DNA of 64,000 nt from a virus. Lineage: Duplodnaviria > Caudoviricetes. The DNA lies in the IMG/VR virus record IMGVR_UViG_3300022173_000064, positions 624 through 64,623 of that record; one strand, given 5' to 3'. The notes under the pieces were generated by a model that saw nothing but the letters and a program-made list of their open reading frames with translations, was not told the origin of the DNA and did not search any database. This document shows positions 44,671-57,291 of this stretch, piece after piece; the first letter of the stretch is position 1; each line of letters begins with the position of its first letter. The position numbers and the translations under genes were made by a program.

Positions 44671-45426
44671 ATGCCAAGAATCCCGCCCGTAAAGAAGCCG
44701 GTCAATATCTCTGGGCGCAGGTTCGGCGCCCTTGAGGCGATTGATTATCGTGTCACCGACAATAAGTGGCGGTGCCTATGCGATTGTGGGAATGAGGTTT
44801 ATCGACGATTTTGCGATCTCAATTCCAACATTCGGCGCGGCAGTCGAAATAGCTGCTCCAAATGCGGAGTGCGAAAACCAACCCGAGGGTCAACAGGGTG
44901 TAAATTCCCCGGGCGCGGAATTGACCTCGTGGGCCAAGAGTTCGGCCGGCTTACTGTCGTTTCTCTTATCGAGAGAACTCCGAGCGGGTCGCTATGGCTT
45001 TGTGCCTGCTCCTGTGGCAGCGAGGGCCACGTAAAGAGAACGACCAGCAATCTGAAAAATACATCCGAGCCTGGATGTAAGGATTGTGAAACCGAGCGCC
45101 GGGCGGCAGCCAAGGTAACGCACGGGGGGGCTCATAAAGGCGTTACGCGTCTTTACTCAATTTGGAAGGGAATTCTTAAACGGTGTCGCGACATGTCTAA
45201 CCCGCACTACGGCGGAAAGGGCATCAAGGTTTGTAGGGAGTGGGAAGATTTTCCAACTTTCCGCGCTTGGGCTCGTGCGGCTCGTTACGACAACACCCTC
45301 ACAATCGACCGGCTCGACCCTTCCAAAGGATATATGCCGTCAAATTGCGAATGGGTGACACAAGAAGAAAACTCCCGGCGCGTCTATCATCCTCGTATCC
45401 TTGATATGAATGGAATTCGCGCATGA
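44671..45426 (+). CDS. Freestanding HNH homing endonuclease
   Basis: Two GxxFGxL..WxCxCxCG repeats; RLYSIWKG..RC; TIDRLDPSKGYMPSNCEW; lower GC. Confidence 0.8.
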   Translation: MPRIPPVKKPVNISGRRFGALEAIDYRVTDNKWRCLCDCGNEVYRRFCDLNSNIRRGSRNSCSKCGVRKPTRGSTGCKFPGRGIDLVGQEFGRLTVVSLIERTPSGSLWLCACSCGSEGHVKRTTSNLKNTSEPGCKDCETERRAAAKVTHGGAHKGVTRLYSIWKGILKRCRDMSNPHYGGKGIKVCREWEDFPTFRAWARAARYDNTLTIDRLDPSKGYMPSNCEWVTQEENSRRVYHPRILDMNGIRA

Positions 45427-47252
45427 ACGCCCCGGTTCTCGAAAAGGACGTGGCCGCCGCGACGCCGGCTTATATCCAAATGGGCCCGTCGCTTCTGGCG
45501 CAGCAGCCGGTGACGACGCAGACGAAGATCGACGCCAACCCCGATTTCAAGTGGACGACGATATTCTCCCACCTCGAGGCGCGGCTGGCTTCGCTCCGAA
45601 CCTGGCGCTATTCGTGGTGGGCGTATTGGGCCCGGCTCGCAGAGTTTTTCAACCCGCGGCGCTATCACTGGCTCGTTGTGGCCAACCGCATGTCGCGCGG
45701 CAACGCCCTCAACGACGCGATTATTGATTCGACCGGCTTGCTCGCGGTCGAGACCTGCGCCAGCGGCATGTGGACCGGCCTCACCAACCCGGCCCGGCCG
45801 TGGATCAAGATGGAGAGCGGCCTGCCGTGGGTGAAGTTGGACGCCGACGGCAAGGAATGGATCGAGGACACCGAGCAGCGGCTTTACACGGTGCTGGCAC
45901 AGTCCAATTTCTACACCGTGCTCGCCCAGGCGTTTCAGGATCTGACGGTGTTCGGCACGGCGCCGTTCGTGATCTATGAGGATTTTGAGGACGTCATCCG
46001 GCTTTATCTGCCGTGCGCGGGCGAATACTATCTCGGGACCGGGGCGCGGCTGTCGGTCGATACGTTCTATCGGGAATTCACGTTCACGGTCGCCCAGATC
46101 GTGGAGCAGTTCAAAGTCGCGAATTGCCCCGAGCAGGTAACGAACCTGTGGAACACCGGCGGATCGTCGCTGGACCGTGAATTTGTGGTCGCCCACGCGA
46201 TCGAGCCCAACTTCGCGCTCACCGAGCGGGGCACCAACAAGACCGTGCGCGTGGTGCCGGGATCGTTCATTTACCGGGAGGTCTACTGGCTCAAGGGCAT
46301 CCAGACCGCGCGGCCGCTGAGTGTGGCGGGCTTCCGGACCAAGCCGTTCATGGCTCTCCTGTGGTCCAGGGTCTCGAACGACGCCTATGGCCGGTCACCG
46401 TGCATGGATGCGCTGGGCGATTCGAAGCAGGTCCAGCTGGAGACCAGGCGCAAGGCCGAATTCATCGAAAAGCTGGTGCGGCCGCCGATGGGCGCCAATC
46501 CAGAGATGAAAAACGAGCCGTCGTCGATCGTGCCGGGCAACATCACCTATACGAACACCGAGGGCACCAAGAAGGGCTTTTGGCCCCTGTTCGAGGTGGC
46601 GCCGGCCGCTCTGGCCCCGATGGTGCAGGATATAGCCCAGGTCAACGCGCGGATCGAGAAGGCGCTATTTGTCGACGTGTTCATGGCCATTACCCAGATG
46701 CAGGGCGTACAGCCGCGGAACGAGCTCGAATTGACCAAGCGCGACCTCGAGCGCCTGCAGAAGCTGGGCCCGGTCATTACGCTGGTCGAGGAGGAGCTGC
46801 GCCAAGCCCTGACCCGGATTCTGGACATCATGGAGCGGCGCCGGATGCTCAAGCCGAAGCCGGCCGCGCTCAAGGACGTGCCGCTGCGGATCGACTTCCT
46901 GTCCTTGATGCGGATTGCCCAGCGATCGGCCACGGCGGTTTCGATGAAGGACTTCATGGCCACGATGGGCGGCATGTCGAGCGCGGCGAAGGCGGCCGGC
47001 ATCCCCGATCCGCTGCGCAAGGTGAACCTGGACAAGACCGCGGAGAAGTTCGCCGACGTCACCAATTTCCCGTCCGATTGCCTCTACACCGATGATGAGG
47101 TGAAGGAACACGACAAGATCAGGGAGCAGGCCTCGCAGGGTGCGCAGGCTCCGGAGCAGATGACCGCGGCCGTGAACGCTGCCAAGACCCTGAGCGAGAC
47201 GAACACCGGCGGCCAGACGGCGTTATCGCAGCTGCTCGGGACGCCTCAATGA
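45423..47252 (+). CDS. Portal (head-to-tail connector)
   Basis: IIDSTG..ASGMWTGLTNPARPW, QSNFY, YGRSPCMDALGD..LQ, LERLQKLGPV, LAQRS motifs of T7 gp8/BPP-1-type portals. Confidence 0.92.
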   Translation: MNAPVLEKDVAAATPAYIQMGPSLLAQQPVTTQTKIDANPDFKWTTIFSHLEARLASLRTWRYSWWAYWARLAEFFNPRRYHWLVVANRMSRGNALNDAIIDSTGLLAVETCASGMWTGLTNPARPWIKMESGLPWVKLDADGKEWIEDTEQRLYTVLAQSNFYTVLAQAFQDLTVFGTAPFVIYEDFEDVIRLYLPCAGEYYLGTGARLSVDTFYREFTFTVAQIVEQFKVANCPEQVTNLWNTGGSSLDREFVVAHAIEPNFALTERGTNKTVRVVPGSFIYREVYWLKGIQTARPLSVAGFRTKPFMALLWSRVSNDAYGRSPCMDALGDSKQVQLETRRKAEFIEKLVRPPMGANPEMKNEPSSIVPGNITYTNTEGTKKGFWPLFEVAPAALAPMVQDIAQVNARIEKALFVDVFMAITQMQGVQPRNELELTKRDLERLQKLGPVITLVEEELRQALTRILDIMERRRMLKPKPAALKDVPLRIDFLSLMRIAQRSATAVSMKDFMATMGGMSSAAKAAGIPDPLRKVNLDKTAEKFADVTNFPSDCLYTDDEVKEHDKIREQASQGAQAPEQMTAAVNAAKTLSETNTGGQTALSQLLGTPQ

Positions 47253-49580: not shown

Positions 49581-49969
49581 GCGATGACGATGATATTGAA
49601 CAGGATCAGCCCGAGCCGCTCGAAACCGAGCAGCCGACGGTCGATGCTGGCAATCCAGCGGCCATCAAAAAGCGGAAACTCACCCAGAAAATCCTCGATC
49701 GCGAGGAAGCCAGGTTCTGGCAAGGCGTGTTCGAGAACGAGATCGGCCGCCGCTGCATGTGGAAGCTCCTCAACGAGGGACATCCTTTCGAGGAGCGCTT
49801 TGCCTGCGGCCCGAACGGCTTTCCGCAGACTGAGGCGACATGGTTTCATGCAGGTGAGCAGGCCCTTGCCCTCCGCCTGTACCAGACATGGCTCGCGCGC
49901 TTCCCGCTTGCCGTCATGGCAATGCACCAAGAGCACGACCATCGATTTCGGACGAAAAAGGACGAGTAA
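49577..49969 (+). CDS. Bbp19-like head-region protein
   Basis: VFENEIGRRCMWKLL..T.FHAGEQALAL pattern; position between portal and scaffold. Confidence 0.65.
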   Translation: MSDDDDIEQDQPEPLETEQPTVDAGNPAAIKKRKLTQKILDREEARFWQGVFENEIGRRCMWKLLNEGHPFEERFACGPNGFPQTEATWFHAGEQALALRLYQTWLARFPLAVMAMHQEHDHRFRTKKDE

Positions 49970-50847
49970 TGGCTGACGAACCGATTGCAGCTCCTCCCGG
50001 AGGCACAGCGCCGGAGCCCGTAGCGGCGGCATCGTCCCCGCCCGCTGCGGCTCCGGCTGCGGCGCCGGAACCGGTTGCTGCGGCACCGGAGCCCGCGCCG
50101 GCGGCTGTTGAGCCTGCCGCGCCCGCTGCCCCGGCCGGCCCCGAGCCGACGCTGCTCCAGAAGCATGACGCCGAGGCTGCGGCCGCAGCTCCCGCCGATC
50201 CGGCCAAGCCTGCGGAGCCCGCAAAACCGGCCGAACCCGCCAAGCCTGTTGCCGAGCCGGCCGCACCGGTTGAGGCCTCCAAGCCTGCGGACGCCGACGC
50301 CTCCACGCCGGCGCCCGCAGCGCCTGCTCCGCTGGAGCTGGTCGAATACGCCTATGAGTTGCCGGAGACGATCAAGCTCGACGACGCAACGCGCAGCACC
50401 TTCCACACCGCGCTCGACGCCTTCCGGACCGATCCGACCAAGGGCGCGCAGGGCCTGATCGACCTGCACAACCAGACCATGACCGACTACGCCGCGCACG
50501 TCGCCGACGAGCAGCAGCGCGTCTGGAATGACACCCGCAAGGGATGGCAGACCCAGGTGATGGCCGATGAACAGCTGGGCGGGTCCGGCTTCCAGACCAC
50601 CATGGGCGCGGTGGCGCGGATGCGCGACCTGCTCGTGCCCGAATCGCACCGCGCCGCCTTCGACAGTTTCTTGACGACGACGGGAGCCGGCGATCATCCG
50701 GAATTCCTTCGCATCCTCCACAACGCCGCCCGCCTGTTCGACGAAGCGCCGTTGCCGCCGCCGGATCCGCGTCCCGCCCCGAACGGCGGAAAGCCGCCGA
50801 GCGGACGGCTGCGGGATATGTACAAATCGACCCAACCACGGGGCTGA
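49969..50847 (+). CDS. Capsid scaffolding protein
   Basis: Long Pro/Ala N-terminus with PAKPAE repeats, helical core, GAGDHPEFLRIL, immediately before MCP. Confidence 0.75.
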   Translation: MADEPIAAPPGGTAPEPVAAASSPPAAAPAAAPEPVAAAPEPAPAAVEPAAPAAPAGPEPTLLQKHDAEAAAAAPADPAKPAEPAKPAEPAKPVAEPAAPVEASKPADADASTPAPAAPAPLELVEYAYELPETIKLDDATRSTFHTALDAFRTDPTKGAQGLIDLHNQTMTDYAAHVADEQQRVWNDTRKGWQTQVMADEQLGGSGFQTTMGAVARMRDLLVPESHRAAFDSFLTTTGAGDHPEFLRILHNAARLFDEAPLPPPDPRPAPNGGKPPSGRLRDMYKSTQPRG

Positions 50848-50873
50848 GGCCCGTTTATTGAGAGGACACCACC

Positions 50874-51920
50874 ATGGCGACCGGTTCTTGGCCCACCATT
50901 GCAGACGTAGCGAGCCGTTCGGACCCGACCGGCAAGCCGAAGATCATCGCGGAAATGCTTTCGCAGTCCGTGGCGCTGGCCAAAGACCTCTACATGGTCG
51001 AGGCGAGCGAGTTCGGCGGTCACGAATTCGTGTTCCGCACGTCGATCCCGGCCGGCTCTTGGCGCCAGATCAACCAGGGCGTCCCGTACAGCAAGTCGAC
51101 CACCGCGAAATCCCGCGTCGGCCTCGGCACGCTGGAGGATTATTCGCAGGTCGATCGGCTGCTGGCCGAAATGACCGGCGACGTCGAACGGTTCCGTGAA
51201 ACCGAGGACGTGGCCTTCCTGGAAGGCATGGGCCAGACCATCGAACAGACCACCTGGTACGGCAACACCGCCGCGACCCCGGCGGAGTTCATGGGTCTTT
51301 CGACCTTCTACAACACCCTGACTGCGGCAACTGCGCAGAACGGGCAGAACGTGCTCAATGGCGGCGGCGTCGGATCGTCGAATGCGTCGATCTGGCTGCT
51401 TTGCCACGGTGCGCGCACCTTCCATGGCCTCTATCCCCGCAGCTCCAAGGCTGGCCTCGCGATGGAGGACAAGGGCGACACCGTTCCGGGCTATGATTCG
51501 CTCGGCAACCGGTTCGAGGCTTACACCTCATGGTTCCGGCAGATGATCGGCATCGTCCCGATCGACTGGCGGTATTGCGCCCGCATCGCGAATATCGACG
51601 TCACCACCGCGGGCCTGGCCGGGCCGAACGCCTACGACATCTTCGCCGGCCTGCGCCAGCTGATGCTGCTGCCGCCGACCCTGACCTCCGAATCGTCCGC
51701 CATCACCGAGACCGATGCGCCCGACGAGCCGGCGCCGGGCATCCGCCCGGTCATCTACTGCAACCGCACCGTCCGTCACTGGATGGACGTGCAGGCGATG
51801 CGCGACCGCAACGTGCTGCTGACCATCAACGACTATGCGGGCAAGCCCGTGACCGGCATCAACAATATCCCGGTCAAGGTCTCGGATCAGCTGCTCATCA
51901 CCGAGGGCGCGGTTTCCTGA
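50874..51920 (+). CDS. Major capsid protein (HK97 fold, BPP-1 Bbp17-like)
   Basis: FRTSIPAGSWRQINQGV..SKSTT, ETEDVAFLEGMGQ, DWRYCARIANID, IPVKVSDQLLITE. Confidence 0.88.
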   Translation: MATGSWPTIADVASRSDPTGKPKIIAEMLSQSVALAKDLYMVEASEFGGHEFVFRTSIPAGSWRQINQGVPYSKSTTAKSRVGLGTLEDYSQVDRLLAEMTGDVERFRETEDVAFLEGMGQTIEQTTWYGNTAATPAEFMGLSTFYNTLTAATAQNGQNVLNGGGVGSSNASIWLLCHGARTFHGLYPRSSKAGLAMEDKGDTVPGYDSLGNRFEAYTSWFRQMIGIVPIDWRYCARIANIDVTTAGLAGPNAYDIFAGLRQLMLLPPTLTSESSAITETDAPDEPAPGIRPVIYCNRTVRHWMDVQAMRDRNVLLTINDYAGKPVTGINNIPVKVSDQLLITEGAVS

Positions 51921-51978
51921 TCTGATCGCCGAACACGGAACCAAGGCCCGCGGGCCGTAGACCAAAAGGACAAAGACC

Positions 51979-52533
51979 ATGATTATCGACAGCCAGCTTT
52001 CCTTCGTTCCGATCGGCGCTCCGCTCTCGCTTGTGGCCGGCGCGGGTATCGACGTCCCCTCGACCAACGTCATCGACTTGCTCGGCATCGGCGCGGGCAA
52101 CCCGCCGACCTCGAGCATTATCGGCAATGTGACCAACTTCGGCGCCCCGGATGCGATGGGCGTCGGCGGGCTGCGGCCGGAATTGCTCGTCAATATCGGC
52201 GACGCGTTCACCACCGGCACCTCGGCCACCCTCAATGTGGCGCTGCAGGCGGCGGCGGATGCCGGCACCCCGACGTGGCAGCCCGGCACTTGGCAGACCA
52301 TCGCCGAAACGGGCGAGCTCACCGCGGCGCAGCTGACCGCGGATCAGACCATCATGCGGCTGCCCTGGCTGCCGCCGTTCCCGGCGAACCTCCGCCCGCG
52401 GTTCCTGCGCCTGCTGTTCCAGGTTCCGGCCGCAACCCTGTTCACCGCCGGCACCATCTCGAGCGCGCTCGTCGTGCCCTGCCGCGACGATCAGTTCAAC
52501 AAATACGCGGCGAAGAACTACAGCGTCGCATAG
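51979..52533 (+). CDS. Capsid cement/decoration protein (Bbp16-like)
   Basis: MIIDSQL..STNVIDL..RFLRL..GTISSAL; follows MCP. Confidence 0.75.
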   Translation: MIIDSQLSFVPIGAPLSLVAGAGIDVPSTNVIDLLGIGAGNPPTSSIIGNVTNFGAPDAMGVGGLRPELLVNIGDAFTTGTSATLNVALQAAADAGTPTWQPGTWQTIAETGELTAAQLTADQTIMRLPWLPPFPANLRPRFLRLLFQVPAATLFTAGTISSALVVPCRDDQFNKYAAKNYSVA

Positions 52534-52604
52534 GCGGACCTCCCAGCCTGCGGCGCGCATCATCCGGTGCGCGCCGGCCTTTTACCCGAAACAAGGACGA
52601 AACC

Positions 52605-53357
52605 ATGACCGAAGCCGCCACCACCGAACGCAGGAAGCCGGGCCGCAAGCCGCGCCCGCCGCTGACCGACACCCCCGAATTTCAGGCCGCCGTGGCGCGC
52701 GTCGCCAATGAGGCCGTGCAGGCCGCCCTGTCCGGCCTTGCGCCCAAGGTCGCGGCCGCCGGCATCGAGCCGACGGTTGGCTCCCAGGACTGGATGCAGA
52801 CCCTCGCCGTGACACTGGCCGAGATCGGCAGCCAAGGCACCGGCCGCAAGACGGTCGCACCGCACATCCTCAAGCAGCGCGAGAATGCGCGCGACCGGAT
52901 GGTGGACCTGATCGTGGCCGCGCGCGCGGAGAAGCGGGCGCCGAAGTACCAGCTTCGCAACAAGGTGGTGCTGGCCGAGCGGGTCATCGAACCGTTTTGG
53001 ATCACGTCGGACAAAAAGACCAAGCCGACCGAAATCGACTGGTACGGCGTGCCGAACGAGGTCATGGTGCCGATCAACGACACCGCCAAGGAGATCCACG
53101 GCGCGTTCATGGATTCCATCGGCACGGTCGAGCGCGTCGCGCCCGAGGATCGCCTGGGCGTGACGCCCGGCGGCCTTGTGGTCCGCAACGCCGCGGTGAC
53201 CGACACGATGTCCAAGCGCACCAACGGCGAGGCCCCGCACGTCGGCGACGGCAAGAGCGACGAGGGCCTTGTCATTCACCACGAGAACGAGCCGGGCCGT
53301 TACAAGTCCGTGAACGTGCTCGGGACCATCCAGGAACCCGCTCGGCAGTCGATCTGA
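52605..53357 (+). CDS. Hypothetical head-region protein
   Basis: AAGGA SD; typical codon usage. Confidence 0.55.
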   Translation: MTEAATTERRKPGRKPRPPLTDTPEFQAAVARVANEAVQAALSGLAPKVAAAGIEPTVGSQDWMQTLAVTLAEIGSQGTGRKTVAPHILKQRENARDRMVDLIVAARAEKRAPKYQLRNKVVLAERVIEPFWITSDKKTKPTEIDWYGVPNEVMVPINDTAKEIHGAFMDSIGTVERVAPEDRLGVTPGGLVVRNAAVTDTMSKRTNGEAPHVGDGKSDEGLVIHHENEPGRYKSVNVLGTIQEPARQSI

Positions 53358-53369
53358 GGGAGATAGCGC

Positions 53370-53663
53370 GTGGCGGATTGTTACATCTCGGAGCATATGA
53401 GTGCGGCGTCGGCGATCGGCACCGCGAATCCGCCCGTGCTGCCCCAGCCGGCGCTCGCCGTGCAGAAGATCGCCATCGGCGCGACCACGCAATCCAACGC
53501 CTTCAGCGACAAGACGCGCGCGATCATGATCGTGGCGGATGGCCCGTGCCATTTCTCCATCGGCGAGAGCCCGACCGCGAGCACGTCGACGATGCTATTG
53601 CCTTCCGGGGTGCCGATGGTTTTCGGCGTCCCGCCCGGCTACAAGATCGCAGTTTCGACCTGA
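53370..53663 (+). CDS. Small beta-rich virion protein
   Basis: GGGGAG SD; QSNAFS..IVADGPCHFSIG..PTA..MLLP..GYKIAV. Confidence 0.55.
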   Translation: MADCYISEHMSAASAIGTANPPVLPQPALAVQKIAIGATTQSNAFSDKTRAIMIVADGPCHFSIGESPTASTSTMLLPSGVPMVFGVPPGYKIAVST

Positions 53664-53675
53664 TCGGAGAGACCC

Positions 53676-53981
53676 ATGACCGCATCTACTGGCCAAATCA
53701 AAACCTCCCCCGTGGTCGTCAGCGGGTCGATCCCGTTCGATGGTGGCCCGCAGGTGAGCGCCGTCAACGCCAACGGCGGGACGTTCACAGCCAACAGCGG
53801 GACGCCCGTCACGGTGACAAACTCCAATATCACGGCAGATTCCGTGATCTGGTTCGGCCTCAAGACCCCGGGCGGCACGCCGGCGGCACCGTTCCAAGTC
53901 ACGGTAACGCCCGGGACCGGGTTCACCGTCAACAGCGGCGGTAGTGACACATCGACTTATAATTACGTCATCTTCGGCTGA
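53676..53981 (+). CDS. Small fibre-tip-like beta protein
   Basis: VTVTNSNITADSVI..TPGTGFTVNS..DTSTYNYVI resembles tail-fibre terminal domains. Confidence 0.55.
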   Translation: MTASTGQIKTSPVVVSGSIPFDGGPQVSAVNANGGTFTANSGTPVTVTNSNITADSVIWFGLKTPGGTPAAPFQVTVTPGTGFTVNSGGSDTSTYNYVIFG

Positions 53982-54009
53982 TCGCGGCCACACACAGGAG
54001 GGGCTACCC

Positions 54010-54492
54010 ATGAAGAAATTCGCTCTTATCGCCGGTGCCGCGCTGGCAGCCTTCGCGGCCAGTTTTGCGGTGGCGCAGACCATCAGCGTCCCGAAGGTGG
54101 CCATCATCGGCCCTACCGATCTGATCCAGGTGCTCCCGGGCGGCGTGCCGTCGGCGCAGAGCAAGTACGCCTACCCGAATCAGATCACGTCGCAGATGGG
54201 CTACCAGAAGAAATCGCCGGCGACCGGTTTCACCTACAGTTTCGGCAATTCGGACAGTCTGATCGCCCTGAGCCATTCGACCACACTGGCCTCCGGCACG
54301 ATCACGTTCGCGGCGGCGCCGTCGGACGGTGCGCAGGAGTGCATCTACGCGCAGAACATCGTCACCACGCTCAACCTGGCGGCCGGCGCCTCGACGCAGA
54401 CCATCGTCAACGCGGTGACCACGATCGGCGCCGCGGCGCAAGTCTGCTATCTCTACTCGCTGTCGGACCAGACCTGGACCCGATCGCATTGA
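54010..54492 (+). CDS. Signal-peptide-bearing beta-rich virion-module protein
   Basis: MKKFALIAGAALAAFAASFAVA|Q; two Cys; AGGAGG SD. Confidence 0.65.
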   Translation: MKKFALIAGAALAAFAASFAVAQTISVPKVAIIGPTDLIQVLPGGVPSAQSKYAYPNQITSQMGYQKKSPATGFTYSFGNSDSLIALSHSTTLASGTITFAAAPSDGAQECIYAQNIVTTLNLAAGASTQTIVNAVTTIGAAAQVCYLYSLSDQTWTRSH

Positions 54493-55682
54493 GTTGGCTG
54501 GCCGCCCATAGGGTCGGGGTCTGGGCTTTCCTGGTTACGGTTGCCTTCGTCCCCGGCATTATGTCAGCGGCCATCGTCCCGCGATGGGCAGTCATTGCCC
54601 TTGGAATTCCGCTGGTGTCGCAGATCAGGTGGCAGATACCGACCGGGCTTCAACTCGCCGTCGCCGCGGGCGTGGCGTGGTCGGCGGCATCGATCATCCA
54701 CGCGCCGGATCAACTGGACAGCCTGCTCCAGTTCTTTTTCATGCTGTGCCTGATCTGCGTGATGGGCGTCGCATCCCAAGTCGACGACCTGACCGAGGCC
54801 TTGTCCGGCATGTGCTGGGGGCTTGGGCTTTCGTCCTTGGTATGCCTCATCGCATGGCGCCACGGGCACTTTCTGGCGACGTCCCACCCCGAGCTATTCC
54901 CCGGACTGTTCTACAATGCCGAGGTGCTGGTTGAGCTCTGCGCGCCGTTGCTGGTTTGGGCGGCGGTGACGCGCCGGTGGCATTTCGTGGCGATCGCCGC
55001 GGTGCCGATCCTGCTCAACAACTCCCGAATCCCTATCGTCGCCGTCATGATCGGGCTGATGTTCGCGTTCTGGCCGAAGGATTGGCGCGCGCGCCTCGCT
55101 CTCGGCATGGCTGGGATCGTGCTGGCGTGCTCCGTAGTGGCCTACATGACCTTCGGCCACTTCAAGCTGGGCAGCGCGGCGGGGCGAATTGTGTCGTGGC
55201 TCACCGCGGCCTATGCCATCACGCCGTCCGGCCAGGGGTTCGGCTGGTTCCGGGCGACGCACGGTGGCGACGAATTCGCCCATAGCGACATTCTCCAGGC
55301 ATTTGCGGAGATCGGGATCGGGGCGCTACTTTTTGCGCTGATTCCGGTCTATGCTCTGCGAAACAGGAGGGCTCATGCCGAGCGCGCCGCATTTGTCGTC
55401 ATCTGCACGGAATTGGCGGTTTCTTTCCCGATCCATGTCCCTGCCACGGGATTTCTGGCAGCCCTACTTGCGGGGTATCTGGTTCGTGATCGCCTTGGCG
55501 TTCGCGGGCTTCAATATGGCGGCCGAGATTCGGTTGGCGATCGCGATGGATGGTATCCCGCGGCTGCCGGAGCAGTTATTGGCGGAGGTCGACGGCGCAG
55601 TTTCTACCTTCCCCTTGGACCTGAGGCTGAGGAGTTATCAGCGGTGGGTCTATCGGGAAGTCGCGCGGCGGGAGCAAGATAA
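54489..55682 (+). CDS. O-antigen ligase / Wzy_C-like polytopic membrane protein
   Basis: About 10 hydrophobic segments; NSR, GRIVSW, GQGFGWF, AHSDILQAFAEIGIG motifs; TTGA and TAATG couplings to neighbours. Confidence 0.75.
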   Translation: MSWLAAHRVGVWAFLVTVAFVPGIMSAAIVPRWAVIALGIPLVSQIRWQIPTGLQLAVAAGVAWSAASIIHAPDQLDSLLQFFFMLCLICVMGVASQVDDLTEALSGMCWGLGLSSLVCLIAWRHGHFLATSHPELFPGLFYNAEVLVELCAPLLVWAAVTRRWHFVAIAAVPILLNNSRIPIVAVMIGLMFAFWPKDWRARLALGMAGIVLACSVVAYMTFGHFKLGSAAGRIVSWLTAAYAITPSGQGFGWFRATHGGDEFAHSDILQAFAEIGIGALLFALIPVYALRNRRAHAERAAFVVICTELAVSFPIHVPATGFLAALLAGYLVRDRLGVRGLQYGGRDSVGDRDGWYPAAAGAVIGGGRRRSFYLPLGPEAEELSAVGLSGSRAAGAR

Positions 55683-55858
55683 TGCCGACCGTATCGCCAA
55701 AGCAGGGGAAATTCATGAGGGCGGTAGCCCACAACCCTGAATTTTCGGCAAAGACTGGCGTTCCGCAGTCGGTAGGCAAGGAATTCGTGGCCGCAGACAA
55801 GGCGGTAGGCAAGAAGCGGATGCGGGATCTGTACCGGGGAAAGGGTCAGAAGGACTGA
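55682..55858 (+). CDS. 58-aa basic protein (below ORF-track cutoff)
   Basis: MPTVSPKQGKFMRAVAHNPEFSAKTGVPQSVGKEFVAADK..RMRDLY; fills the gap exactly. Confidence 0.7.
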   Translation: MPTVSPKQGKFMRAVAHNPEFSAKTGVPQSVGKEFVAADKAVGKKRMRDLYRGKGQKD

Positions 55859-55859
55859 A

Positions 55860-56339
55860 ATGGACCTCAGCACTTCGATGAAAGCCGCATTGGCGGAAAC
55901 GTGGGTTTGGGGCTTTAAGTCCCACGTTTTTCATTGGAATGTGCGCGGACCGATGTTTTCCCAATATCACGAGTTTTTCGGGGATATCTACAAGGACGCG
56001 GATGGCGCCGTGGATGATCTTGCGGAGCAAATCCGGGCACTGGATGAGGCCGCCCCGAGTTCGATCGATGAGATCACCGGTCCGGCGAGGATCATTTTTT
56101 CCCACGCTGACGACGCCGAACAGATGCTCGAGCAATTGTCGTCCGACAACAAGACGGTCATTGATGCCCTGACCGCGGCGCAGACCTCCGCCGAGGAGGC
56201 TGGGAAGAAGGGGCTGGCCAACTTCCTCCAGGATCGCCTCGACAAGCACGCGAAATGGGGCTGGATGCTGACGGCCTACACCAAGAAGGACGACGCGCCC
56301 CCGCGCCGCATGCGCAGCCTGTATCGAGCGAGGGCATGA
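55860..56339 (+). CDS. dps: Dps / ferritin-like protein
   Basis: HVFHWNVRGPMFSQYHEFF..DDLAEQIRAL..HAKWGWML ferroxidase-centre motifs. Confidence 0.88.
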   Translation: MDLSTSMKAALAETWVWGFKSHVFHWNVRGPMFSQYHEFFGDIYKDADGAVDDLAEQIRALDEAAPSSIDEITGPARIIFSHADDAEQMLEQLSSDNKTVIDALTAAQTSAEEAGKKGLANFLQDRLDKHAKWGWMLTAYTKKDDAPPRRMRSLYRARA

Positions 56340-56542
56340 TGGCCGACTGGATCAAAAAGGGAGCCAAGAAGCATCCCGGGCTTTTCCGGCGCAAGGCCGA
56401 GGCCGCCGGCGAGACGACGCGCCAGTTTGCGGCAGAGCACAAGGATTCGCCCGGGAAGCTGGGGAAGCAGGCCCGTTTCGCGATCAATGCGATGGGCGCG
56501 GCCAAGAAGCACCGATCGAAGCTCTACAACCACAAGGATTGA
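56336..56542 (+). CDS. Small basic protein
   Basis: WIKKGAKKHPGLF..GKLGKQARFA; ATGA coupling. Confidence 0.6.
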   Translation: MMADWIKKGAKKHPGLFRRKAEAAGETTRQFAAEHKDSPGKLGKQARFAINAMGAAKKHRSKLYNHKD

Positions 56543-56546
56543 GGCC

Positions 56547-56948
56547 ATGGCCGAAGACAAGAAATCCCGCCGCAGCGTTATGTACGACAAGGGCAAGAAG
56601 CCCGAACCGAAGGCCGAGGAGAAGAAGCCCGCGGCACCGGCGGAGCCTGCTGCGCCCGCATCTGCCGATCCCGCCAGCGCCGCGCCGGCCGCGCCGAACA
56701 TGGGCGAGACGCAATCCAAGGCCCGCACCGAGCTCCACAAGCGCCACGAGGGCGAGCGGAGGGACTTCCATGGCAACCAGCGCGACGCTCTCCGGAAGAT
56801 GGTCGCGAGGCACGACAAGGAGATCAAGGCGCTCCAGGTGGCTCATGAAGCCGAGATGGCCGGCGCTGCGGCAGTGCCTGGCGAGGGTAATGCGGCGGCG
56901 GCCGAAGGGGCTGGCGCGGTGTCTGCGGCTCCTCCGGCGGAGGCGTGA
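56547..56948 (+). CDS. His-rich coiled-coil hypothetical protein
   Basis: GAGG SD; LHKRHEGERRDFH..ARHDKE. Confidence 0.55.
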   Translation: MAEDKKSRRSVMYDKGKKPEPKAEEKKPAAPAEPAAPASADPASAAPAAPNMGETQSKARTELHKRHEGERRDFHGNQRDALRKMVARHDKEIKALQVAHEAEMAGAAAVPGEGNAAAAEGAGAVSAAPPAEA

Positions 56949-56949
56949 G

Positions 56950-57291
56950 ATGTTCACCAAGCTCGTAGACATGGAATTGGACGACGAGGAGAAGGTGGAC
57001 TTCTGCGCGCCGATCGCGTGCGCGATGCCCGATTTTCCCTACGGTCTGCGTCTGTGTCTTTCGGAAAAGGAACTCAAAAAGCTGGGCTTGCCAGTTCCCG
57101 AGGTTGGCGACTATCTTGATCTGCGCGCGTTCGCCTGCGTCAAGTCCGTTTCCTGTGATTCAAACGACAGGGGCGAGACCTGCCGGGTGGAATTGCAGAT
57201 CGAGAAGATCGCGGTTGAAAACGAGGACGATGAACCCGAGGAGATCAAGGATGCCCCCAGACGACGTTTATCTTACGGACGCTCAGGTTGA
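56950..57291 (+). CDS. Capsid staple-like protein
   Basis: FPYGLRLCL..LKKLGL..VGD..VELQIEKI pattern. Confidence 0.6.
   Translation: MFTKLVDMELDDEEKVDFCAPIACAMPDFPYGLRLCLSEKELKKLGLPVPEVGDYLDLRAFACVKSVSCDSNDRGETCRVELQIEKIAVENEDDEPEEIKDAPRRRLSYGRSG

What the first reader, a model, noticed from the sequence alone, without database searches (positions are those of the whole stretch)
50806..57291. Shared R-x-R-x-(L/M)-Y motif on scaffold and small head-region proteins: candidate capsid cargo-loading signal
The scaffold ends GRLRDMYK; the 58-aa protein ends KRMRDLYR (16/18 nt identical to the scaffold motif); Dps ends RRMRSLYR beyond its ferritin fold; 56336 ends KHRSKLYN; 56547 begins KSRRSVMYD; 56950 ends PRRRLSYG. 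Scaffold C-termini bind coat protein in P22/T7-type assembly. Inference: these proteins reuse that tag to be packaged into the procapsid, like encapsulin cargo peptides.
Basis: partly seen in the sequence, partly recalled or inferred. Interest (0 to 1): 0.8.

Follow-up and report, generated by a model that had tools for sequence, protein, structure and literature searches.

The report
Shared scaffold-tail tag on phage head proteins
In this 64.6-kb phage the last few residues of the head-scaffolding protein also sit on four or five unrelated neighbouring proteins, including an iron-storing Dps. In relatives the copies change together with the scaffold's own tail, so the peptide is most likely an address label that loads these proteins into the assembling capsid, although loading has not been measured.

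Summary
Scaffold, the 58-aa protein and Dps carry R-x-R-x-(L/M)-Y 4-7 residues before their stops. p68 (C-terminal) and p133 (N-terminal) carry the looser basic-x-x-hydrophobic-Tyr form, and the p113 tail is a weak match.

This is not chance. The strict pattern occurs 4 times in the six-frame window, 3 of them at these C-termini. A matrix built only from relatives ranks four of the sites top of 1366.

In 65 related metagenomic phages the scaffold tail is conserved. It exists in lineage variants (YDHPRS, YKS, RY), and the small proteins of each genome carry their own scaffold's variant (z about 5.5). Dps homologues in four other related contigs carry the local variant, whereas cellular Bradyrhizobium Dps has no tail.

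In epsilon15, phiV10, BPP-1 and BcepC6B the scaffold and the gp10-like protein (the p113 family) share genome-specific tails. Epsilon15 gp10 is a reported virion protein that a 2022 re-analysis removed from the capsid surface.

Best reading (about 0.6): the peptide is the scaffold's capsid-docking peptide, reused as a cargo tag.

I did not check it.

The parts
49969..50847 (+). Scaffolding protein (292 aa). The tag G279-K286 (GRLRDMYK) lies at 50803-50826, after a Pro-rich linker.
   Evidence: Sits between the portal and the MCP. 60 orthologues have a conserved C-terminal tail, with Y285 nearly invariant. PHROG 458 hit.
50874..51920 (+). Major capsid protein of the epsilon15/BPP-1 GP7 type; candidate receptor of the tag.
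   Evidence: PF20911, E 2e-92. In the loop after the spine helix, residues 135/138 (TPAE versus NPAQ/T/S) associate with tail type, which is a weak lead only.
51979..52533 (+). Bbp16-type protein, the likely true surface cement protein; it carries no tag.
   Evidence: PF21190 Bbp16, E 4e-6. BPP-1 Bbp16 is the cement protein (PMC3863775).
55682..55858 (+). p58, a small basic protein (pI 10.4). C-terminal tag KRMRDLYR at 55814-55837.
   Evidence: N-terminal domain matches phrog_16759. Orthologue tails follow the local scaffold variant.
55860..56339 (+). Dps mini-ferritin (159 aa). Tag RRMRSLYRARA at 56304-56336, beyond the four-helix bundle.
   Evidence: PF00210, E 1e-19 over residues 11-144. 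PDB Dps chains align to residues 7-140 with the His/His/Asp/Glu ferroxidase positions kept. Tails of phage homologues follow the local tag type, and cellular homologues lack a tail.
56336..56542 (+). p68, a small basic helical protein (pI 10.5). C-terminal tag KHRSKLYNHKD at 56507-56539.
   Evidence: Top-scoring site in the window. 30 orthologues, with tails concerted with the scaffold, z 5.7.
56547..56948 (+). p133. N-terminal tag SRRSVMYDKGKK at 56565-56600, followed by a Lys/Glu/Pro/Ala-rich spacer and a C-terminal helical region.
   Evidence: 43 orthologues keep the tag at the N-terminus and follow the local scaffold variant, z 5.4.
56950..57291 (+). p113, homologue of epsilon15 gp10 / BPP-1 Bbp20. 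Weak C-terminal tag PRRRLSYGRSG at 57256-57288.
   Evidence: PF21628, E 1e-10. Matches 3J40_N at E 7e-10, and the tail starts just after the aligned KDA. The AF2 model has a beta-hairpin at 56-91 and a coil tail. Homologues in epsilon15, phiV10, BPP-1, BcepC6B, L068 and L076 share their scaffold's tail.

Best explanation
The basic-x-x-hydrophobic-Tyr peptide is the docking peptide by which the scaffolding protein attaches to the inside of the assembling procapsid, most likely to the GP7-type coat protein. Four to five unrelated proteins encoded in a row downstream (p58, Dps, p68, p133 and, more weakly, the gp10-like p113) carry a copy on a flexible end. They would therefore be co-assembled into the procapsid as cargo.

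Small basic cargo would stay with the DNA and could be ejected into the host. A Dps dodecamer would carry twelve tags, would be too large to leave through capsid pores, and would stay in the filled head.

Shown here: the tag is real, terminal, independent of protein charge or fold, conserved, and co-evolving with the scaffold tail.

Inferred: that the scaffold tail is the capsid-binding element, that the coat protein is the receptor, and that the tagged proteins end up in particles.
For: 1. The scaffold tail is conserved in 60 orthologues. It follows a Pro-rich linker and has a nearly invariant Tyr.

2. The tails evolve in concert. Tails of p68, p133 and p58 are more like the scaffold tail of their own genome than of other genomes: z 5.7, 5.4 and 2.2, with p <= 2e-4, 2e-4 and 0.017 on dereplicated pairs. 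Examples:
- L058: KRY in the scaffold, p58 and p68; RRY in p133.
- L045: SRMYDHPSS in scaffold and p68.
- L043: LRDIYKS versus RLQYKS.
On the MCP tree the YK-type arose at least 3 times. In 3 independent contrasts p68 followed in about 2.8 and never went the other way.

3. Dps follows the local tag. Four phage homologues at 65-95% identity keep an RxRxLYR-like tail (the closest ends RRMRSLYRARD). A 46% homologue in a syntenic phage ends VLHDHPRSR, beside a scaffold ending VLYDNPRS and four other proteins with HD(H/N)PRS tags. Bradyrhizobium Dps lacks any tail.

4. The tag is independent of position and charge. It is N-terminal in p133, and it sits on proteins of pI 4.5 to 10.5.

5. Relatives tag further unrelated proteins. 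These are a lysozyme-like protein that makes sense only if delivered from the virion, a Cys-rich protein, a KHNKKL family and a DUF6582-like family.

6. In epsilon15, phiV10, BPP-1 and BcepC6B the scaffold and the gp10-like protein end in the same genome-specific peptide: AFYP, (V/T)LYG, RLY(A/G)AS and AAK(L/F)Y. That peptide occurs near the C-terminus of no other sizeable reading frame in the stretches read.

7. Epsilon15 gp10 was found in virions by proteomics. It is no longer thought to be the surface staple (PMC9207676), and the Bbp16 type is the cement protein (PMC3863775).

8. Established precedent: the scaffold C-terminus binds coat protein in 80alpha, and SaPI1 CpmB copies that C-terminal motif to bind the same coat site (PMC5644958).
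Against: - There is no physical evidence for this phage or its clade. No cultured relative lies closer than about 39% MCP identity, so no virion proteome exists.
- The receptor is unknown. The MCP covariation (positions 135/138) rests on 5 independent contrasts, of which only 2-3 are concordant, and is not significant.
- The phylogenetically independent transitions of tail type number only about 3, so the sign tests cannot reach significance.
- Most gp10-like proteins of the close clade lack a basic tail and end in acidic runs.
- The window's own tags are heterogeneous: YKS, YRG, YRA, YNH, YDK, SYG.
- A folded Dps dodecamer inside a DNA-filled head has no precedent that I could find.
Confidence: 0.6

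Rival explanations
1. The tag is an assembly address, but its receptor is not the coat protein. It could bind the scaffold core itself (as the T4 capsid-targeting sequence is thought to), the portal, or the conserved small protein encoded between portal and scaffold (p130 here, gp5 in epsilon15, Bbp19 in BPP-1). The tagged proteins would still be recruited to the nascent head.
For: Concerted evolution only requires a common phage-encoded partner. p130 homologues occur in 50 of 65 loci and in epsilon15, phiV10 and BPP-1. The MCP covariation is weak.
Against: No p130 column tracks tail type. The portal columns that differ are shared by three related groups and are not independent. In the solved 80alpha system it is the scaffold C-terminus that contacts the coat protein (PMC5644958).
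Confidence: 0.15
2. The tail is a recognition signal for a host or phage protease or chaperone. It would act as a degron that clears scaffold and surplus small proteins after assembly, or as a chaperone handle, and would have nothing to do with packaging.
For: The signal is short, terminal and unstructured, and lies on either end of proteins, as with ClpX-type signals (general knowledge). Hosts differ between lineages, which could also drive concerted change.
Against: No prohead protease gene was found in the head module with Pfam or PHROGs; the only 'protease' label is the PHROG name of the scaffold family itself. The tag lies 2-15 residues from the end and tolerates varied trailing residues. 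Epsilon15 gp10 carries the tail and is reported in mature virions, not degraded (PMC9207676). A lysozyme-like protein and a Dps are odd clients for a degron.
Confidence: 0.1
3. The tails are generic basic DNA-binding extensions, as in some cellular Dps proteins, and their resemblance to the scaffold end is coincidental or compositional.
For: The window's tags are Arg/Lys-rich. Some cellular Dps proteins use basic tails to bind DNA (general knowledge). p58 and p68 are very basic overall.
Against: Generic basic tails would not track lineage-specific variants such as HDHPRS on Dps, p58-like and three further proteins in L068. They would not keep an invariant Tyr, nor be shared with an acidic scaffold (pI 4.7) that has no reason to bind DNA. 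The epsilon15, phiV10 and BcepC6B versions (AFYP, LYG, AAKLY) are not basic.
Confidence: 0.07

Closest known systems
Staphylococcal phage 80alpha scaffolding protein and SaPI1 CpmB (shared C-terminal helix-and-hook with RIIK motif; PMC5644958)
   Same: A second, otherwise unrelated protein carries a copy of the scaffold's C-terminal peptide and thereby reaches the scaffold's site on the coat protein inside the procapsid.
   Different: In 80alpha there is one hijacker protein from a satellite, which competes with the scaffold to change capsid size. Here the phage's own genome carries 4-8 tagged proteins, including an enzyme-like and a ferritin-like protein. The motif is unrelated in sequence, and binding is not shown.
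Phage T4 capsid-targeting sequence on internal proteins IPI-III and Alt
   Same: A short peptide addresses unrelated proteins to the prohead interior, and the cargo set is variable between relatives.
   Different: The T4 tag is N-terminal, is thought to bind the scaffolding core and is cut off by the prohead protease gp21. Here the tag is mostly C-terminal, is identical in kind to the scaffold's own tail, and no prohead protease was found.
Encapsulin cargo-loading peptides (Family 1: ferritin-like protein, DyP and other cargo)
   Same: An HK97-fold shell; a terminal peptide on a flexible linker; the peptide can be N- or C-terminal; the cargo is ferritin-fold and oligomeric.
   Different: This is a true phage with portal, tail and terminase genes. 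The peptide sequence is unrelated to known loading peptides. The shell must also hold 64.6 kb of DNA, and no sequence relationship to encapsulin was found or claimed.
Nested protease/scaffold genes that share a C-terminus (lambda C/Nu3, herpesvirus UL26/UL26.5; general knowledge)
   Same: Two proteins reach the procapsid through one shared C-terminal capsid-binding tail.
   Different: In those systems the sharing comes from in-frame nested translation of one gene. Here separate genes carry short copies with different codons (10-16 of 18 nucleotides identical).
Epsilon15 gp10 / BPP-1 Bbp20 family (PF21628)
   Same: p113 is a member, and across the family the tail matches the scaffold tail of the same phage.
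   Different: The family was annotated as a surface 'staple' or coat protein. A re-analysis assigns that density to the 130-aa Bbp16-like protein (PMC9207676), so the family's location and role are open.

Membership tests
Dps (PF00210 ferritin-like, Dps subfamily) | Four-helix-bundle ferritin-like domain with a significant profile match | tested here: met
   PF00210, E 1.1e-19, residues 11-144. 15 PDB Dps chains match, the best at 1.6e-17.
Dps (PF00210 ferritin-like, Dps subfamily) | Inter-subunit ferroxidase residues (His, His, Asp, Glu in the HW...H...D..AE pattern) | tested here: met
   The alignment to 8ff9_A shows HWNV, YHEFF and DDLAEQIR conserved.
Dps (PF00210 ferritin-like, Dps subfamily) | Dodecameric shell | not testable with these tools
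Epsilon15 gp10 / Bbp20 family (PF21628) | Profile and pairwise homology to gp10 | tested here: met
   PF21628, E 9.5e-11. 3J40_N, E 7e-10 over residues 28-102.
T4-type capsid-targeting sequence | N-terminal leader removed by a prohead protease at a conserved site | tested here: not met
   The tag is C-terminal in 5 of 6 proteins. No protease family was found among the head-module proteins searched.
Encapsulin cargo system | Shell protein without portal or DNA packaging; cargo peptide of the known consensus | tested here: not met
   A T7-type portal (PF12236, E 4e-106) lies upstream and tail genes downstream. The peptide consensus is different.
Encapsulin cargo system | Peptide binds a luminal pocket of the HK97-fold shell | not testable with these tools
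Scaffold C-terminal mimicry (80alpha SP / SaPI1 CpmB kind) | The same terminal peptide on the scaffold and on another protein of the same assembly system | tested here: met
Scaffold C-terminal mimicry (80alpha SP / SaPI1 CpmB kind) | Peptide contacts the coat protein in the procapsid | tested here: inconclusive
   There is only a weak association of MCP residues 135/138 with tail type: 35/19/4/1 in the contingency table, and 2-3 of 5 independent contrasts concordant.
Nested protease/scaffold sharing of a C-terminus | Shared tail produced by in-frame overlapping genes | tested here: not met
   The genes are separate, with different codons and unrelated flanks.

The most novel reading that the evidence does not exclude
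This phage group uses its capsid as an encapsulin-like compartment as well as a DNA container. The scaffold's docking peptide would have become a general, evolvable loading tag. A swappable cassette of tagged genes next to the head genes would decide what travels in the particle: small DNA-associated or anti-defence proteins, a wall-degrading enzyme, and Dps dodecamers that stay in the filled head as an iron/peroxide shield for the genome. This would be a living intermediate between phage scaffolding peptides and encapsulin cargo-loading peptides.
Probability: 0.25. Interest if true: 0.9.

Novelty: new variant of a known kind. Interest (0 to 1): 0.78.

Why it matters
If true, three things follow.

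First, it gives a simple sequence rule for finding the proteins that a large, mostly uncultured group of epsilon15/BPP-1-like phages carry inside their heads: look for the scaffold's own last residues on other genes. These proteins include candidates for injected anti-defence factors.

Second, it offers an explanation for a standing oddity. Epsilon15 gp10 is a virion protein, but it is no longer the surface staple it was modelled as.

Third, it shows a natural phage loading a ferritin-fold protein through a scaffold-derived tag. That is the arrangement that defines encapsulins, so the proposed phage-to-encapsulin transition becomes testable.

It also suggests a short natural tag for loading foreign proteins into capsids of this type. 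Epsilon15 and BPP-1 are cultured, so the core claim can be tested with standard genetics.

Tried and rejected
No verdict on binding exists.
- A DNA search of the phage collection found only a 180-bp MCP match to Pseudomonas phages. The protein search shows no cultured relative above about 39% MCP identity, so no virion proteome of a close relative is available.
- p68 has one marginal hit in cultured phages. The p58 N-domain is widespread in jumbo phages, but without informative annotation.
- Foldseek of the p113 model against the PDB gave nothing at E <= 0.001.
- Literature searches for the motif strings (YDHPRS and others) and for packaged Dps found nothing relevant.
- The BPP-1 paper does not mention Bbp20 and does not say which MCP elements face inward, so the 135/138 loop could not be placed inside or outside.
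- An RNA-level or gene-conversion explanation was rejected. Codons differ between copies and the flanks are unrelated.
- Chance or composition was rejected.
- The single-linkage clustering of tagged ORFs merged p58 and p68, because stop-to-stop frames overlap, and it included Arg-rich off-frame hits. Its family counts are therefore only approximate.


Full report
**What the window is.** The window is nearly all of a 64,623-bp single-contig phage genome. The head module on the + strand reads as follows:
- T7-type portal, 45423-47252 (PF12236).
- Two conserved small genes.
- Scaffold, 49969-50847.
- GP7-type major capsid protein of the epsilon15/BPP-1 kind, 50874-51920 (PF20911, E 2e-92).
- Bbp16-type protein, 51979-52533 (PF21190).
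- Several unassigned genes.
- A Wzy_C-like membrane protein, 54489-55682.
- A tightly packed run of five genes: p58 (55682-55858), Dps (55860-56339), p68 (56336-56542), p133 (56547-56948) and p113 (56950-57291, PF21628 Gp10-like).

No cultured phage has an MCP more than about 39% identical.

**Checking the observation.**
- The scaffold/p58 nucleotide identity of 16/18 is right. Dps shares only 10/18 and 12/18, and the flanks are unrelated, so what is shared is a peptide, not a DNA or RNA element.
- Strict R.R.[LM]Y occurs four times in all six frames. Three of these are the C-termini of the scaffold, p58 and Dps.
- A position matrix trained only on tails from other genomes ranks the p68, p133, scaffold and p58 sites first to fourth of 1366 Tyr-centred 12-mers, with a clear gap to the fifth. 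Dps ranks 25th and p113 lower.
- The carriers range from pI 4.5 to 10.5, so the motif is not a by-product of composition.

**Relatives.** The MCP recovered 65 IMG/VR loci at 48-83% identity. Scaffold orthologues were found in 60 of them. They end in a conserved Pro-rich linker followed by basic residues, a hydrophobic residue and a nearly invariant Tyr. The tail comes in lineage variants:
- ...RRLRDIYDHPRS, the commonest.
- ...GLRSLYKS, as in the window.
- ...KRY/RRY, in the most distant clade.

The small proteins follow their own scaffold:
- In L058 the scaffold, p58 and p68 carry KRY and p133 carries RRY.
- In L045 the scaffold and p68 both end SRMYDHPSS.
- In L043/L064 the scaffold has LRDIYKS, and p68 and p133 have RLQYKS/RLQYKG.

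p133 orthologues always carry the tag at the N-terminus.

**Strength of the covariation.** On dereplicated pairs, and with the Tyr itself left out, within-genome similarity of the scaffold tail to the p68, p133 and p58 tails exceeds permuted pairings. The z scores are 5.7, 5.4 and 2.2 (p <= 2e-4, 2e-4, 0.017).

On an MCP tree the YK-type tail arose at least three times. In the three phylogenetically independent contrasts available, p68 changed the same way in about 2.8 and never the opposite way. Three contrasts cannot reach formal significance. Two independently drifting motifs would not be more alike within genomes than between them, so the pattern implies a common constraint.

**Dps.** The fold ends near residue 140, and about 19 further residues carry the tag. 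The ferroxidase His/His/Asp/Glu positions are kept.

None of the 65 loci has a Dps, but the protein database does:
- Homologues at 95, 74, 68 and 65% identity end in RRMRSLYR-like tails.
- Bradyrhizobium chromosomal Dps proteins at 53-55% identity stop right after the fold.
- A 46% homologue ends ...KVLHDHPRSR.

The contig of that 46% homologue (L068) has the same gene order as the window. Its scaffold ends ...RVLYDNPRS. Its p58-like, DUF6582-like and 95-aa proteins end ...PIHDHPRS. Its p133-like protein begins MAKSPLHDNPRS, and its gp10-like protein ends ...ASALYDRE. Two further Dps contigs (L075, L076) show the YK/YR-type on every tagged gene, including a gp10-like protein ending RARLRSAYGK.

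A generic DNA-binding tail would not do this.

**Other cargo.** Relatives put the tag on further unrelated proteins:
- A family beginning MPW...KHNKKL, in 13 loci.
- A DUF6582-like family (phrog_16160).
- A GWKPGG family.
- A Cys-rich 192-aa protein (L028).
- A 260-aa lysozyme-like protein (L056, phrog_90, E 1e-18).

Of 190 matrix hits in the loci, 133 lie within 16 residues of a stop. Single genomes hold up to seven or eight tagged genes, and all of those I inspected lie in the same cassette between the head and tail genes. Some of the hits elsewhere are Arg-rich off-frame noise.

**The gp10-like protein and cultured phages.** p113 is a homologue of epsilon15 gp10 (3J40_N, E 7e-10), and its tail begins right after the aligned ...KDA. 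In four cultured phages the scaffold and the gp10-like protein share a genome-specific ending:

| Phage | Scaffold ends | gp10-like protein ends |
|---|---|---|
| epsilon15 | SAFYPKK | DAFYPDGEDD |
| phiV10 | AAEVLYGK | AAETLYGNGGE |
| BPP-1 | ARRLYAASNMNP | AQRLYGASSMSA |
| BcepC6B | RAAKLYDKS | RAAKFYANTPTT |

In the stretches read, those short strings lie near the C-terminus of no other sizeable reading frame. Epsilon15 and phiV10 are close relatives, so their difference is one more concerted switch.

Epsilon15 gp10 was identified in virions by proteomics and modelled as the surface staple. A 2022 re-analysis concluded that the staple density fits the 130-aa protein instead (PMC9207676). 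That protein is the Bbp16 homologue, and Bbp16 is the proven cement protein of BPP-1 (PMC3863775). The window has its own Bbp16-type gene.

So the gp10 family is a virion protein of unknown location that carries the scaffold's tail, which is what the cargo model predicts. The AF2 model of p113 is a long beta-hairpin with two short helices and a coil tail. It has no PDB fold match.

**Mechanism.** In the solved 80alpha system the scaffold's C-terminus is the coat-binding element. SaPI1 CpmB copies the 80alpha scaffold's C-terminal motif to occupy the same coat site (PMC5644958).

The most economical reading is that this peptide is the scaffold's docking peptide and that tagged proteins ride into the procapsid on it. 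I put this at about 0.6.

One lead is the MCP loop just after the predicted spine helix (helix 104-129; residues 132-139 at pLDDT below 50). In that loop TPAE goes with YDHPRS-type tails, and NPAQ/NPAT/NPAS goes with YK- and RY-type tails. The contingency table is 35/19/4/1. Only 2-3 of 5 independent contrasts are concordant and none is opposed, so this is not significant. No p130 column tracks tail type, and the portal differences are not independent.

**Rivals.**
- Another assembly partner as receptor: 0.15.
- A degron or chaperone handle: 0.10.
- Generic DNA-binding tails: 0.07.
- Chance is effectively excluded.

**Comparison with known systems and novelty.**
- Address tags for capsid cargo are known in T4, where they are N-terminal and removed by a protease.
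- Scaffold-tail mimicry is known in SaPI1 CpmB.
- Shared tails through nested genes are known in lambda C/Nu3 and in herpesvirus.
- Terminal loading peptides define encapsulins.

What is new here:
- A scaffold-derived, mostly C-terminal tag with no sign of protease removal, spread over many separate genes in a swappable cassette.
- The tag's presence across the epsilon15/BPP-1 group.
- A Dps among the cargo.

I found no paper describing it. An earlier, unchecked note of this scan (e1-5667307) reports a Dps with a scaffold-like tail in an unrelated 174-kb phage, and other notes describe N-terminal tags in huge phages.

I class the finding as a new variant of a known kind, with interest 0.78.

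Noticed in passing
window 51979-52533: This gene matches PF21190 (Bbp16, the BPP-1 cement protein). The surface cement protein of this phage is therefore probably this gene and not the gp10-like p113, in line with the 2022 re-assignment in epsilon15 (PMC9207676).
   Followed up: partly
window 51276-51287 (MCP residues 135-138): The TPAE loop after the spine helix flips repeatedly to NPAQ/NPAT/NPAS among relatives. The flip associates with the type of scaffold/cargo tail (35/19/4/1), but too few independent contrasts exist for significance.
   Followed up: partly
window 54489-55682: A Wzy_C/O-antigen-ligase-like multi-pass membrane protein (PF04932, E 3e-5, below the Pfam cut-off) sits inside the head module. 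Its stop overlaps the start codon of p58. Homologues were found in only 10 of 65 related loci.
   Followed up: no
window 55682-55816 (p58 residues 1-45): The N-terminal domain of p58 (phrog_16759) also matches the N-termini of much larger 'virion structural protein' families (phrog_25121, phrog_22033). It gives tblastn hits in 122 cultured phages, many of them phiKZ-like jumbo phages.
   Followed up: no
L056:7217-7999: A 260-aa lysozyme-like protein (phrog_90, E 1e-18) in a related phage carries the cargo tag (...PLYTNPRSPV...). It is a candidate packaged wall-degrading enzyme.
   Followed up: partly
L071:10001-10519: Dps homologues at 57-62% identity (P0005-P0007) have both N- and C-terminal extensions. 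P0006 lies in a contig with a P22-type portal, about 2 kb upstream of it. Dps acquisition by phages therefore seems recurrent, and their tails were not compared with that phage's scaffold.
   Followed up: no
L026, L030, L043, L044, L075 (gp10-like genes): Many gp10-like proteins without a basic tail end in an acidic run followed by a terminal Tyr (EEEEY, NEKY, QEYD, EEGEY). This may be a degenerate or alternative form of the tag.
   Followed up: no
L068:4204-4782: An HNH endonuclease gene (PF13392) is inserted on the opposite strand between the scaffold and MCP genes of a related phage.
   Followed up: no
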